NCBI GenBank assembly: GCA_036867785.1
Contig: CP145424.1
Coordinates: forward strand, 558,001 to 622,000
DNA: 64,000 nucleotides
Direction of reading: 5' to 3'
DNA from: Plasmodiophora brassicae
Lineage: Eukaryota
Positions within the stretch are counted from its first letter, which is position 1; each line of letters begins with the position of its first letter. Under the pieces are notes generated by a model, which was given only the letters and a program-made list of their open reading frames with translations, searched no databases and was not told the origin of the DNA. Below are positions 21,935 to 26,720 of the stretch, in pieces. A program made the position numbers and the translations under genes.

Positions 21935-23511
21935 TCAGTAGGCCGCGATTGCAGCATTGATGATGTCGATGCTTTCGGCGACCTGATCCTCGTTGATGAC
22001 GAGGGGAGGGGCGAACCGGATGATGTGGGTGTGGGTCTGCTTGGCCAGCAGGCCGCGATCTTTCATCTGCAGGCACAGGTCCCATGCGGTTTTGTCGCCC
22101 TTCGGTTTGATCACGATAGCGTTCAGCAGTCCTTTGCCGCGGACGGCCTGGATGATGTCAGGGTGTGTCTTTGACAGTTCGTCACGGAAAACGGCGCCGA
22201 GGCGTTCGGCGTTCTCGCAGAGGTTTTCGTCTTGGATTATGTCGAGGGCTTCCATGGCGACGACACAGGCCAGCGGGTTGCCTCCGTATGTGGACCCGTG
22301 CTCACCGGGCCCGATCGTTAGCATGACTTCATCGTCAGCTAGGACTGCAGAAACAGGCATCATACCGCCTGACAGCGCCTTCCCAAGGATGACGAGGTCG
22401 GGTCTAACGTTATCATGATCGACGCAGAGCATGCGGCCCGTCCTTCCAATTCCTGTTTGAACCTGCGAAACACAGGATATAAGACTCCATGACGGCCCCG
22501 TTACCGATCCTTACTTCATCAGCGATAAACAGCACGTTGTTCTTCTTACAAATTCGGGACACTTCTTTTAGGTAGCCAGGGTCAGGAACGATAACGCCGG
22601 CTTCACCTTGAATGGGCTAGACAGTCCCTACTTAGTGGACCGATGGCGACGACGTCGTATGGTTCGTACCTCGACCATGAATGCGGCACAGTCTGGATGT
22701 GAGACTGCTTTCTCGAGCGCCTTGGTATCATTGTAGTCAATTAGGTCAAAGTTGGGCATGAACGGGCCGAAACGAGCCGAGCATGTCGGGTCACTTGACG
22801 CCGACACGGCCGCAAGAGAGCGGCCCCAGAAATTCCCGCGAGCAAACACGACGCGGGCGGCGTTCGGCTTGACCTTCTTGACATCATACGCCCACCGTCT
22901 GGCAAGTTTCACGGCTGCACGAGTTCCATGAGCAAGGCATGCTACGCGCGCATTGAGCACGATGGAACTTACCAGTTTCGCAAGCCTGTGATAAACATTA
23001 GTGCGAAGGAGGTACATCCCAAGAAATTGAATAGTCCAACCTCAACGCCGGTGTTCATTGGCAGGAGCCGATCGTATCCGAAGAGTTTCGACATGTATTC
23101 CTCGTAGCGTCCCAGCTGGTCATTATGAAAGGCGCGCGAAGTCAGCGTCAAAACTTCGGCCTGTTTGGACATGGCCGCAACGAGACGAGGATGGCAGTGT
23201 CCTTGATTGACGGCAGAATACGCGCTAAGCATGTCCAGGTACCTCTTCCCATCGACATCCCACACTTCAACCCCACGACCCTTCGCCAATACCACAGGCA
23301 ACGGTTTGTAGTTCAACGCCCCGTACTTCTTCTCTGACAACCGATCACTTAAGACGGGCGGTCGAGCCGTGGCGCTCGCCTACCTACCAAGCTCGATGCA
23401 TGCCGCAGATGCCCCTGTGGCACCTGAGGTCGACGTCGACGTCGACGACGCCCATCGACGCAGCGTTCGCGACGCGACCGGCAGGCGCGTACGTGGTAAA
23501 CAGAGCACCAT
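21935..23511 (-). CDS. OAT: Ornithine aminotransferase
   Basis: [39 protein letters not shown] (PLP lysine), [18 protein letters not shown]. Confidence 0.95.
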
Positions 23512-23706
23512 GCCAACGAGTTTGGCGACTTTGTATTGGTCGTTTTCATCCAAAATGAAATTTTCTGCGTCAGTTGACAGCCGTGGATCCAAGTATCGCG
23601 ACGGCATTTTTTGGTGATGACTGGTCAGGATCGCTCCGGATCATCACCAAACTCCGTACGTCAGCCTGCGATCAGCGCGCTCAGGTTGCCAGCTGTTCGA
23701 CCAGCG

Positions 23707-24780
23707 ATGGCGTCGTCTGGACCTGGGGATAGTGGATCAACCGCCAATGAGATCCTCGAAGGAGACGATCGTGTTCATGTCACACTTGACGTGATTGTGA
23801 AACCGTATGTAAGCATACAGCCGCGGAACACGTTGTATCACGTTCTAGGCCAATTCGACGTCGAAGTGGCCACCGTTGGCGACTTTACAGACGCCGTACT
23901 TGGTCTCGTTCAAGAAAACGTAGACGGCCTGGCTCGCAAGTCATCTGACGACGACTCGACGTATATACTTGCTAAGGAGACCGTAACGTTAACGTCACTG
24001 GACCAGTTTGTTGCCATCAAACACAACAATCACTTCTACGCCTTCCACCGTCCACATGGCGAGGATCACCGAGATCCAATGCGTACCCCAACTGTTGTGC
24101 TAACGTTCAAATTGAAGTTAGTCACTGAATGTTGTTCTTGGCATACAGGCATAACCAAGGACACGCTTAACCGCTGGAGTAAGGACGTCCCGAGTCTATT
24201 CATTTATCAGTACGGGAAAGAGCTGCGAAACGCATCGGACTTCAAGAAGTTTCAAGCGTCTGTGTTCTCGGCTCCGCAGTTGGACCGTGCTCGCGCCGCT
24301 GCCGATGAACAAGTGAGAGCGATCGAACGCCAACTGAAGGATCACTGGGGAACGGTATATCAATCCCAGTCAGCCAACTGGCGGATTTGGGCCAGTCGCA
24401 TCGCGCGCGAGCCGGTCACACGTCGAGCTGCTTTGATCGAGGATCCGCCTCCATACGAAATCGTCCACCTCTTCGAGCACTCGCCACTACAAAATGGACC
24501 GTTGCTCACGACCCTCCGGGAAGACAATTCCACAACGCTAGCGATTCTGGACACGATGGACGATCACTTGCAAGAGTTTCAGGACTTTATCCATCGCCAG
24601 ATCGAGGCGTTTCGCGACAGCGTTGGGTGCCAGATGCGGCAGATGCGCGACACCGTGCGCCGACATCGACGAGTTGCTGAGGCGCTTAGGGCTAGTCTTC
24701 ATCCCGAGGAACTTCCTGATAATCTGAACAGGCTGCAGAGGGCTCCCAATCAGAGTGATGTAGACCATGAGGATCAATAA
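23707..24780 (+). CDS. Hypothetical protein convergent with the transposase; possible in-frame intron 24083-24148
   Basis: Open for about 360 codons; Trp-rich block LKDHWG...NWRIWASRI...DPPP and a C-terminal heptad-like helical region. Confidence 0.7.
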   Translation: MASSGPGDSGSTANEILEGDDRVHVTLDVIVKPYVSIQPRNTLYHVLGQFDVEVATVGDFTDAVLGLVQENVDGLARKSSDDDSTYILAKETVTLTSLDQFVAIKHNNHFYAFHRPHGEDHRDPMRTPTVVLTFKLKLVTECCSWHTGITKDTLNRWSKDVPSLFIYQYGKELRNASDFKKFQASVFSAPQLDRARAAADEQVRAIERQLKDHWGTVYQSQSANWRIWASRIAREPVTRRAALIEDPPPYEIVHLFEHSPLQNGPLLTTLREDNSTTLAILDTMDDHLQEFQDFIHRQIEAFRDSVGCQMRQMRDTVRRHRRVAEALRASLHPEELPDNLNRLQRAPNQSDVDHEDQ

Positions 24781-24782
24781 AT

Positions 24783-25965
24783 TTATTCGAATCCGGCCTC
24801 CGTCATGCGATTGGTGATGTCCTTGTAGGCGACGCCTGGATTGAACTTTCCGTTTGCGCCAAACCCACATTTCTTGAACAGACCTCTCATATCATATCTC
24901 CGAAACTTCTTGAGTTCCGTTAAGATTACAACAGGGAGGTCCTTCGGTTTGACATTGCCTTCAGCATACCAACGCCTAAGGCTTTTCTTGACAAGACCGA
25001 ACACAATCTCAATCGGGTTGAACATCGGACAGTAGGCTGGCAGGAAGATGGGAATGATGCCGAGATCCCGTAGGTACTCGACTATCGTATGATGGCAATG
25101 TATCCTGGCTCCATCCATGATCCAAACCGATTGCCGCCCAGGATGCTTCTGAACTCGGCCGGACAGAGCATGCTCACGGACGCATTCGACAAATTTCTGA
25201 CGATCGAACGTGCCCTCTGTGAGAAATGTGCCTTCCAACCCATCACATCCGATGAAGCACAACAACGAGCTACGCGGCCTTCTGACGAATTCGCCTCTGA
25301 AGAGCAGTTCCTGGCCCTGCATAACGCATGTTAGGGTCCTGTATACGGATAACGTTGGGGAACTCGTCGACAGACCTTAAGCGCATAACCCTTGCGACGT
25401 AGCATGTCCCGGTTGTCGAGGCCGAACTCGTCAAGAAAGCACAGGCTGGAGTGGGTCCAGTCGATAGCGTTGAGTTCCTCGAAGAATCGGACGATGTCTG
25501 CTTCCTTGATCTGGATGGCTCGACGGACAATGAGCTATTCAACAGTAAGCCGAAACTGATAACCCATTCCTGTTCGAGTCGTACCTTTCGAGTAAAGCCG
25601 TATTCGCGAAGTATGCGCCAGATCGTGCTCAAACTGATGTCGTTCTTCCAGTTGATTTCGAATGCCAGCTTGGCTTCGTCAAGAAAGGACAAAGGGTTGG
25701 CGAGGAAGTAGTCCCTTATCCATTCGCGGTGTTCAGGCGTGTACTTCCGCTGCGACTCTGTTGCCTTACGGGATACGGCACCGGTGCGCTCGTACCGCTC
25801 GATCCATCTGCCGATCGTCGATGGCGCCTTGCGATACAAAAGGGCTATCTGATTCTGCTTGAGGCCGATGAAATAGTAGGCGTACAGCGCATGCAGTTTG
25901 GTGTTCTCTGTAGCATGTTGGCTTTCAATTGCTTCGGACACGTGTACACCATGAGCGGCCGCCAT
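24783..25965 (-). CDS. IS630/Tc1/mariner-superfamily transposase (HTH plus DDE_3, DD34E); introns 25535-25584 and 25317-25375
   Basis: HTH QNQIALLYRKAPSTIGRW; spliced GFTRK|LIVRRAIQIK...CFLDEFGLDNR...GYALK|GQELLFRGEF; WIMDGARIH followed by FLPAYCPMFNPIE with 34 residues between D and E. Confidence 0.9.
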
Positions 25966-26478
25966 CTCCAACGCTGGCACCTACGCGCTTTGCAATAATT
26001 TTGTAACTGAAAAAGAGGGAGCACGACGCCACAGATCACATCTACAACCTTGAACGGGCGTTACATCGTCTGCTCGCGCTCGTGCAATCCAAATCAGGTA
26101 TAACAACTAGTCTCAGGTCAACCACTACCGAACAGGACACGATTGCGAAGACGGTTGTTTCTCGAGCTCCGTTTAATTGATCAGAATCGCCGCTACGTAT
26201 CTTCTCTACCTGCTTGACTGAAAGATTGCCACATCCCGTCCCTATATCTTCTGGAAGCTACAGGTTTCAAGTCAAACCAGCCGAGCAAGCGCGCTCGCGA
26301 TAGTTGGGCACCAACAATCGCGAAAAAAATGCGTGGCGACGGTTGATAGTTGGGGCGATTGCATTTCGGACGGCAATCGCAATATTGAGTCGGCGGGCGG
26401 CGGGTGCGGTGGTCACTTGTCCTTGACGGGTCCAAAAAAGCGGCACTCGGTTGACTGTGGGCGCCGCCTGCGTGCGTC

Positions 26479-26720
26479 ATGTCCTCGTGGAGGAAGGACA
26501 ACCCGTGCGCGGCCCTGGCCGACGCCAGCTACGCATGCATCGAGAAGAACGATGGCGACAAGTCCGCCTGCGATGCGCACTTCCAGGCGTATAAGGCGTG
26601 TGTCAAAGCGGAGGTGGCGTGCACCCCGGCAGCAACCGCCCCACAAAGTGACTCTGATCGCAATTGCCTCCGTAGACTGAGCGACGCAGACGCGAACGAC
26701 TTGCTGCGAACTCCACCTGA
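26479..26720 (+). CDS. Twin CX9C (CHCH) protein, COX23/CHCHD7-like
   Basis: CAALADASYAC and CDAHFQAYKAC; one intron then TERRRRERLAANST*. Confidence 0.75.

What the first reader, a model, noticed from the sequence alone, without database searches (positions are those of the whole stretch)
23589..26380. Two-gene DD34E transposon-like unit: intact spliced transposase paired tail-to-tail with an unknown ORF
Seen: a transposase with a complete HTH and D-D34-E triad once two phase-0 introns are removed, and a convergent ORF of about 360 aa (23707-24780) with no domain I recognise; the stop codons are only 2 nt apart. Established: IS630/Tc1/mariner elements usually carry a single gene, whereas PIF/Harbinger elements need a second DNA-binding protein and ciliate TBE/Tec elements carry accessory ORFs. 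Inference: this may be a two-component Tc1/mariner-type system whose partner (Trp-rich HWG...WRIWASRI block plus helical tail) acts in targeting or regulation, or a co-domesticated gene pair.
Basis: partly seen in the sequence, partly recalled or inferred. Interest (0 to 1): 0.8.

Follow-up and report, generated by a model that had tools for sequence, protein, structure and literature searches.

The report
Two-gene Tc1/mariner transposon with binding partner
This is a recently active jumping gene of the clubroot parasite that, unlike most of its Tc1/mariner relatives, carries a second conserved gene whose unnamed protein is predicted to dock onto the cutting enzyme, so it may be a two-part transposition machine.

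Summary
Real, and a mobile element rather than a domesticated pair. The unit is a 2,847-bp TA-flanked IS630/Tc1/mariner transposon (23536-26382) of Plasmodiophora brassicae: seven copies at 99.7-100%, one older copy, and an empty single-TA site in another isolate's run. RNA confirms both transposase introns (357 aa, DD34E). It belongs to a family without a Pfam model (245 clusters; named members from mosquitoes, a midge, Aphanomyces, chytrids, phytomyxids), modelled as a beta-grasp domain, a Trp-rich helical domain and a long helix. It lies tail-to-tail with the same transposase clade in four families of this genome and in 3 of 3 confirmed metagenome loci (two lineages). A complex model of the sister-family pair supports binding to the catalytic domain (0.68, best control 0.00), but the interface is not especially conserved and nothing is shown experimentally. 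Linkage in mosquitoes, oomycetes and chytrids was not tested. The scan reported the sister family of this genome before (e1-7153700). Multi-gene relatives are known (TBE, Tec, Anchois, Dici); I found this partner family in none of ten paper searches. New variant of a known kind.

The parts
23534..23535 (.). Left TA of the target-site duplication
   Evidence: TA before the element in 8 of 8 copies; empty allele in run X14 has a single TA (tables 5 and 5c)
23536..23563 (+). Left end: imperfect terminal inverted repeat beginning TTG
   Evidence: 19 matches in a 30-column alignment with the right end; 0 of 1000 shuffles reach the score
23588..23600 (+). Subterminal 13-nt motif, found inverted near the right end (26296-26308); candidate inner transposase-binding site (inference)
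   Evidence: 2 mismatches between the two; 4 further matches at up to 2 mismatches elsewhere in the 64-kb window, so weak on its own; both kept in the 370-bp derivative at C8:53k
23707..24780 (+). Partner gene: exons 23707-24082 and 24149-24780, 335 aa; beta-grasp-like domain, Trp-rich helical domain, long C-terminal helix, acidic D-x-D-H end
24083..24148 (+). In-frame 66-nt intron of the partner; alternative donor at 24094 gives a 55-nt intron and a 130-aa product
   Evidence: joints in runs X15 (both) and X16 (55-nt listed only)
24783..25965 (-). DD34E transposase gene, 357 aa, two N-terminal HTH-like stretches and a DDE_3 domain
25317..25375 (-). Transposase intron 2 (59 nt, phase 0)
   Evidence: joint in run X16; absent from the intronless sister family, which aligns across it
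25535..25584 (-). Transposase intron 1 (50 nt, phase 0)
   Evidence: joint in run X16
25988..26048 (-). Probable 61-nt intron in the transposase leader (position may shift by up to 3 nt)
   Evidence: one contig in run X16
26355..26382 (-). Right end: imperfect terminal inverted repeat, element ends CAA
26383..26384 (.). Right TA of the target-site duplication
   Evidence: TA directly after the element in 7 of 8 copies; the C20 copy has two extra A before it

Best explanation
A recently active cut-and-paste transposon of the IS630/Tc1/mariner group, from an IS630/Gambol-like eukaryotic DD34E clade, that carries its own accessory gene. Shown: mobility (copies, TA duplications, empty site), an intact spliced transposase, transcription of both genes, and inheritance of the partner with this transposase clade under constraint. 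Modelled, not shown: the partner's Trp-rich helical domain and the start of its long helix dock on the outer strand and two helices of the transposase catalytic domain, away from the three catalytic residues in sequence. Inferred: the long helix oligomerises the partner, so that it acts as a positive cofactor that helps assemble or stabilise the transpososome on the short, poorly matched ends, while the free beta-grasp domain serves as an adaptor to a host protein (tethering, localisation or turnover). The transposase itself cuts and inserts at TA as other members of the group do (established for the group).
For: Seven copies at 99.75-100% with 0-2 substitutions, one of 97-98%; TA on both sides in 7 of 8, and 4 of 4 in the sister family; empty site in run X14, 1 of 2 DNA runs laid. 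Convergent pair in four families of G000 with transposases about 30-60% identical and in 3 of 3 confirmed metagenome loci of 53 pattern matches, one from a 32% GC organism, stops 23 and 28 nt apart where measured. Partner dN/dS 0.33 against the older copy (8 synonymous, 9 non-synonymous changes, Fisher p 0.035), pN 0.39 against pS 0.84 versus L073. Partner and transposase relatives come from overlapping hosts (culicine mosquitoes, chytrids, phytomyxids). Complex model of the sister-family pair: score 0.68, best of 3 controls 0.00, runs agree in at least 70% of contacts, partner pLDDT at least 76; the mark was reached by 51 of 78 solved complexes and 2 of 108 mismatched pairs, on eukaryotes by 39 of 65 and 2 of 126. 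No solved complex of such a partner turned up, so a pass from memory is less likely. Ends match at only 19 of 30 and 21 of 28 columns in the two families.
Against: Binding is a model only, run once, on the sister-family pair and not on this window's pair; 7 of 44 blind gene neighbours also pass. Interface columns are not more conserved than their surroundings (partner mean entropy 2.81 against 2.68 bits; transposase 2.19 against 1.30, the latter including the buried core) and the most conserved partner residues (D144, R145, W175, W178, A179, P198, P199, D307, H310) are not in the listed interface. Nothing distinguishes activator from inhibitor. L072 against L073 shows no constraint on the partner (dN/dS 1.68, p 0.38). 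The foreign sample is small (3 short contigs, two of them 94% alike) and physical linkage was not tested in any named insect, oomycete or chytrid genome. Truncated partner relics without a transposase match within 9.9 kb, and transposase relics without a partner match, exist in G000. The beta-grasp match is weak (best Z 5.4, rmsd 5.3 A over 84 residues; Foldseek E 0.03) and a fold shows no function.
Confidence: 0.45

Rival explanations
1. The partner binds the transposase but restrains it: a built-in inhibitor or dose regulator that keeps copy number low, working together with antisense read-through from the convergent partner gene and with unproductive splicing.
For: The same complex model. 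A contig spliced at GT..AG sites of the plus strand runs across the whole transposase gene in run X15, and out-of-frame 55-nt splice forms occur in both genes. Copy numbers are low (8 and 4 in the two young families).
Against: Long-term purifying selection on a pure inhibitor is harder to explain for an element that spreads between distant hosts (inference). The antisense contig is from one run. Low copy number is expected in a 25-Mb compact genome.
Confidence: 0.2
2. The partner does not touch the transposase; it acts on the host, as an anti-silencing or chromatin factor or a ubiquitin-like decoy, in the way recalled for VANC of VANDAL and MURB of MuDR elements.
For: Beta-grasp-like domain whose nearest solved folds are ubiquitin-like, Ras-binding and PB1 domains. 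The domain recurs in tandem, without the long helix, in a Culicoides ZAD and C2H2 zinc-finger protein and in a solitary 686-codon frame of this genome, which suggests a use apart from transposases. The modelled interface is not conserved.
Against: The complex model passes well above its controls, including the control with the transposase replaced. The partner is acidic overall and has no known chromatin-reader or DNA-binding family.
Confidence: 0.25
3. The second gene is a captured passenger without a role in transposition.
For: Partner relics occur without transposase; the partner diverges faster than the transposase (about 22-46% against 49-54%).
Against: Same position and orientation in four families and two foreign lineages; open frames and constraint; invariant motifs over 80-96 relatives; no ordinary host gene family matches it.
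Confidence: 0.07
4. A co-domesticated host gene pair, no longer mobile.
For: Both frames are intact, spliced and transcribed.
Against: Seven near-identical dispersed copies with their own TA duplications and an empty allele at this site.
Confidence: 0.01

Closest known systems
IS630/Tc1/mariner (ITm) DD34E elements, above all DD34E/Gambol of mosquitoes (PMC7386202 and PMC8533490, passages read; PMC3212995, passages read; Coy and Tu 2005 not seen)
   Same: TA duplication, DD34E triad, N-terminal HTH region, IS630-like transposase; most named close relatives of this transposase are from mosquitoes and 114 of 120 have the 34 spacing.
   Different: Autonomous ITm elements usually carry one ORF (PMC8533490 passage); here a second, unrelated gene is inherited. 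Ends begin TTG and match poorly. Placement in Gambol could not be tested.
Dici1/Dici2 of Diutina catenulata (PMC13469147; sections 12-15 read, list of supplements seen, files not read)
   Same: TA-flanked DD34E element near Gambol/Hiker with extra coding sequences, active.
   Different: Dici has three CDS: a 143-146 aa orphan and a degenerate transposase with a homeodomain; its 22 fungal relatives carry only transposase genes; TIRs start CAGTCGGT. The partner here is not transposase-derived (profile probability 0.1%) and is shared across distant hosts.
Ciliate TBE, Tec, Anchois, Sardine, Thon and Tennessee elements (PMC7325037 and PMC3464196, passages read)
   Same: DD34E/DD35E ITm elements with conserved accessory ORFs of unknown function; Anchois ORF2 is shared among families.
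   Different: Three or four ORFs, zinc-finger or tyrosine-recombinase genes in some, restricted to ciliates. None of the named partner relatives seen here came from a ciliate; homology to Anchois ORF2 was not tested.
PIF/Harbinger two-component elements (recalled, no call)
   Same: Works-like analogy: a second element-encoded protein that binds the transposase.
   Different: Different transposase superfamily, 3-bp target duplication and a Myb/SANT DNA-binding partner (recalled); here TA, DDE_3 and a partner without a known DNA-binding family.
L31-duo elements (DD37E) with an ORF2 of unknown function (recalled; not found in the library)
   Same: ITm element with a second ORF of unknown function.
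   Different: DD37E rather than DD34E; whether its ORF2 is related to this partner is unknown.

Membership tests
IS630/Tc1/mariner group | TA target-site duplication | tested here: met
   7 of 8 copies clean, 4 of 4 in sister family; single TA at the empty site
IS630/Tc1/mariner group | DDE/D transposase of the DDE_3 / IS630 type with N-terminal HTH region | tested here: met
   PF13358 and PF13384 above cut-off; NF033545 124 against 100; D162-D248-E283
IS630/Tc1/mariner group | Terminal inverted repeats | tested here: met
   present but imperfect: 19 of 30 columns, 0 of 1000 shuffles; not found by the exact-seed repeat finder
IS630/Tc1/mariner group (usual form) | Single ORF | tested here: not met
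   second intact, spliced, transcribed gene in all full copies
DD34E/Gambol | DD34E triad and TA duplication | tested here: met
DD34E/Gambol | Falls in the Gambol clade of a transposase tree | not testable with these tools
Dici | Three CDS, the third a degenerate transposase; TIRs starting CAGTCGGT | tested here: not met
   two genes; partner unrelated to the transposase profile; ends start TTG
PIF/Harbinger | 3-bp TAA/TTA duplication (recalled) | tested here: not met
   only TA is duplicated; flanking bases differ
PIF/Harbinger | Myb/SANT-like DNA-binding partner (recalled) | tested here: not met
   no such Pfam hit in 96 partner relatives at E 0.01; model has a beta-grasp and a different helical domain
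TBE/Tec/Anchois | Accessory ORF homologous to their ORFs | not tested
L31 (DD37E) | DD37E spacing | tested here: not met
   34 residues; 114 of 120 relatives 34, 6 unparsed
Beta-grasp (ubiquitin-like) fold, partner N-domain | Structural match to solved beta-grasp domains | tested here: inconclusive
   model pLDDT 93; nearly all of the top 50 rows are beta-grasp domains but best Z 5.4, rmsd 5.3 A, 84 aligned; Foldseek best E 0.03

The most novel reading that the evidence does not exclude
An obligate two-subunit Tc1/mariner-type transposase system, spread across rhizarians, oomycetes, chytrids and flies, in which an undescribed beta-grasp/helical/coiled-coil protein docks on the catalytic domain, licenses transposition on degenerate ends and links the complex to a host factor; its domain has since been recruited into host genes at least twice (a midge ZAD zinc-finger protein, a solitary triple-repeat gene in this genome).
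Probability: 0.3. Interest if true: 0.92.

Novelty: new variant of a known kind. Interest (0 to 1): 0.8.

Why it matters
Tc1/mariner transposases are the textbook one-protein transposition systems and the basis of gene-delivery tools. A widespread lineage that keeps a dedicated partner bound to the catalytic domain would add a new layer of control (activation, restraint or targeting) and explain a large unnamed protein family now annotated as hypothetical host genes in mosquitoes, oomycetes and chytrids. The compact, young, intron-poor sister family and the predicted interface make the question directly testable with two genes. The element is also an active source of insertion polymorphism in the clubroot parasite, here between two divergent housekeeping genes.

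Tried and rejected
Exact-seed repeat search did not find the terminal repeats; they were defined from copy boundaries. My first splice model was off by one base at intron 1 and was corrected. Pfam, NCBIfam and PDB sequence searches name no family for the partner; only coiled-coil noise. The full-length model matched only long helices; viral structure search gave nothing at E 0.001; the helical domain has no named look-alike in the Atlas apart from its own unnamed family; absence of a match does not show a new fold. Viral contigs: 5 and 146 pattern matches, none confirmed; prokaryote genomes: 116 matches, none confirmed. Profile word search for partner relatives returned only 6 proteins among 8000 scored. 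Locus tags of insect partner and transposase proteins gave no usable adjacency; only the P. brassicae pair has consecutive tags. A broader motif scan of the metagenome collection was not run, so the sample of foreign loci stays at three. Read depth was not used to rank expression (contigs only). Three weak own-genome partner hits (L110-L112) were not recovered by the family profile. Degenerate-transposase origin of the partner rejected. Ten paper searches found no description of this element or partner; subscription papers (Coy and Tu 2005, Hiker, L31 papers), Repbase/TEfam entries and bioRxiv supplements were not visible and may bear on novelty. Passages of PMC4054914, PMC9977792, PMC12730594 and 10.64898/2026.10.14.759018 showed no such element.
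Full report
OBSERVATION. The two genes are there. On the minus strand three exons (25965-25585, 25534-25376, 25316-24783) joined over two phase-0 GT..AG introns of 50 and 59 nt give a 357-aa transposase with D162, D248 and E283, 34 residues between the last two. It is identical at 357 of 357 residues to an annotated Plasmodiophora brassicae protein, which names the organism. Pfam finds HTH_23 and DDE_3 above cut-off and NCBIfam the IS630 transposase model at 124 bits against 100. The convergent frame 23707-24780 ends 2 nt from the transposase stop. Of two RNA-type runs laid, X16 shows both transposase junctions exactly, plus a probable leader intron. The 66-nt form gives 335 aa, matches the annotated product at 257 of 257 residues, and removes a stretch that 75 relatives fill at only 9%; the 55-nt form stops at 130 aa.

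IT IS A MOBILE ELEMENT. The own genome (25.3 Mb, 20 contigs) holds six further copies at 99.75-100% over window 23536-26382, with 0-2 substitutions each, one with a 5-nt deletion and one split by a 3.87-kb insertion, and an older copy at 97-98% split by a 6.87-kb insertion. All eight have TA before the element; seven have TA directly after it, the eighth after two extra A. Of two DNA runs laid, X14 has one contig that joins the two flanks with a single TA, while X12 runs into the element from both sides. The ends are real but poor inverted repeats: 19 matches in 30 columns, reached by 0 of 1000 shuffles. A 370-bp derivative keeps both ends. A co-domesticated pair is thereby excluded.

THE PAIR IS INHERITED. 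A second family of 2,485 bp (three full copies, one deleted; TA at both ends in 4 of 4) has an intronless transposase 49% identical and a convergent partner about 22% identical; an earlier agent of this scan reported that family (e1-7153700). Two older families (C5:715-731k, C18:591-593k) keep the same orientation. In metagenomes 53 stretches matched the search pattern, 3 were confirmed, and all 3 carry a convergent transposase of this clade at 52-71% identity, one in a 32% GC organism with a partner only about 23% like ours; stops are 23 and 28 nt apart in the two measured. Two of the three are 94% alike, so this is two lineages, and the related pattern matched only 19 of 150 relatives, so the sample is narrow. 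The partner family is large: 245 clusters at E up to 0.001, Atlas clusters dominated by arthropods and oomycetes, named members from Spongospora, Sorochytrium, Phlyctochytrium, Aphanomyces (many copies), Sabethes, Ochlerotatus and Culicoides (20 of the 150 listed were looked up). The closest transposases come from overlapping hosts, mainly mosquitoes, also Bradysia and Chytriomyces, 114 of 120 with the 34 spacing. Physical linkage in those named genomes was not tested. No member was confirmed in viral contigs or prokaryote genomes. Against the older copy the partner has dN/dS 0.33 (p 0.035) and the transposase 0.52 (p 0.17); between lineages synonymous sites are saturated while pN is 0.39; between the two similar metagenome loci there is no constraint (1.68, p 0.38). 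Against strict linkage: several truncated partner relics have no transposase match within 9.9 kb, and three transposase relics no partner match.

WHAT THE PARTNER IS. No Pfam family is shared by more than 1 of 96 relatives, no PDB sequence matches beyond coiled-coil noise, and it is not a decayed transposase (profile probability 0.1%). AlphaFold2 gives a confident three-part protein (pLDDT 84 for the window frame, with the intron stretch unfolded; 93 for the first 215 residues of the sister-family partner): a beta-grasp-like domain, a small helical domain carrying the near-invariant D-R-x-G-A, W-x-x-W-A and P-P...F motifs, and a helix of about 70 residues before an acidic D-x-D-H end. The fold search lists almost only ubiquitin-like, Ras-binding and PB1 domains for the first part, but weakly (best Z 5.4, rmsd 5.3 A, 84 aligned; Foldseek E 0.03); the long helix matches generic coiled coils; the helical domain has no named look-alike.

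MECHANISM. One complex prediction, on the intronless sister-family pair, supports binding: score 0.68, best of three controls 0.00, runs agreeing in at least 70% of contacts, partner pLDDT at least 76; the mark was reached by 51 of 78 solved complexes and 2 of 108 mismatched pairs (39 of 65 and 2 of 126 on eukaryotes; 7 of 44 blind neighbours). The interface joins partner residues 171-177, 204-205 and 215-229 to transposase residues 201-208, 219-228 and 301-312, inside the catalytic domain; the beta-grasp domain is not in it. The interface columns are not more conserved than their surroundings, and the most conserved partner residues lie beside, not in, it; this tempers the result. My best reading (0.45) is a positive cofactor that oligomerises through its long helix, helps assemble or stabilise the transpososome on short mismatched ends, and uses the beta-grasp domain as an adaptor to a host protein. 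Rivals: a host-directed anti-silencing or decoy factor (0.25), favoured by the reuse of the domain in a Culicoides ZAD/C2H2 protein and in a solitary triple-repeat frame of this genome; a bound inhibitor (0.2), favoured by an antisense spliced contig and out-of-frame splice forms; a passenger (0.07). That the element is mobile and the partner is a constrained part of it I hold at about 0.9 or more; the mode of action is inference.

COMPARISON. It is a member of the IS630/Tc1/mariner group by TA duplication, DD34E transposase and inverted ends, and departs from the usual single ORF (PMC8533490, passages). Gambol is the likely neighbourhood (DD34E, TA, mosquitoes; PMC7386202, passages) but no reference sequence was at hand. 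Multi-gene members are known: TBE and Tec (PMC7325037, passages), Anchois, Sardine and Tennessee (PMC3464196, passages), Dici (PMC13469147, sections 12-15), and, from memory only, L31-duo. Dici's extra genes are an orphan and a decayed transposase and are absent from its relatives; the ciliate ORFs could not be compared. PIF/Harbinger is a works-like analogy and fails the membership tests (features recalled). Ten searches of the paper library showed no description of this element or partner; passages of PMC4054914, PMC3212995, PMC9977792, PMC12730594 and the clubroot pangenome preprint 10.64898/2026.10.14.759018 did not either. Subscription papers, Repbase/TEfam entries and preprint supplements were not visible and could hold a prior description. 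Three earlier notes of the scan describe other two-gene Tc1-type elements in fungi with longer partners; I did not test whether those partners are related.

VERDICT. Observation confirmed with corrections; interpretation partly supported. New variant of a known kind: a two-gene DD34E lineage with an undescribed partner family and a testable predicted interface. Interest 0.8.

Noticed in passing
window 23511-23535 and 26383-26479: The element sits in a short divergent intergenic stretch: about 22 nt upstream of the probable start of a class-III aminotransferase gene (minus) and about 95 nt upstream of a CHCH gene (plus). In run X15 one contig runs from inside the element's right end into the spliced CHCH gene.
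   Followed up: partly
window 24825-24881 and 25592-25651: Joints with GT..AG on the plus strand in run X15: a spliced contig antisense to the transposase that keeps the transposase's own introns. One run only.
   Followed up: no
window about 25715-25769: Minor 55-nt minus-strand joint inside transposase exon 1 in run X16; out of frame, would end the protein before the catalytic domain. Short side only 29 letters.
   Followed up: partly
L104:3788-5848 (G000:C4:513-515k), minus strand: 686-codon open frame with three tandem copies of the partner's beta-grasp-like domain and one helical domain, no long helix, no transposase match in 9.9 kb: possible domesticated gene.
   Followed up: partly
protein P0144 (Culicoides brevitarsis XP_063702760.1): 1100-aa protein with a zf-AD-like start (below cut-off), three partner-domain repeats and C2H2 zinc fingers: possible recruitment into a host transcription-factor-like gene.
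   Followed up: partly
L069:2470-2850 (G000:C8:53k): About 370-bp TA-flanked derivative that keeps both ends of the element (72% and 90%) and neither gene: MITE-like.
   Followed up: partly
L068:3474-7344 (G000:C7:843-847k): 3.87-kb insertion with 179-bp identical terminal direct repeats and an apparent 5-bp duplication in the leader of one copy's transposase: young LTR-type element; its ends also appear as loose ends in run X16.
   Followed up: no
L070:932-7801 (G000:C15:677-684k): 6.87-kb insertion with CACTG inverted ends, subterminal repeat arrays and an apparent 3-bp duplication inside the partner of the older copy: CACTA/CMC-like by recalled features.
   Followed up: no
L062, L108, L109 (partner) and L064 (transposase): Relics folded back on themselves (matches on both strands side by side), as earlier notes of the scan describe for other transposon relics in this genome.
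   Followed up: no
L050:5457-5460 (G000:C20): Two extra A between the element's right end and the TA in one copy.
   Followed up: no
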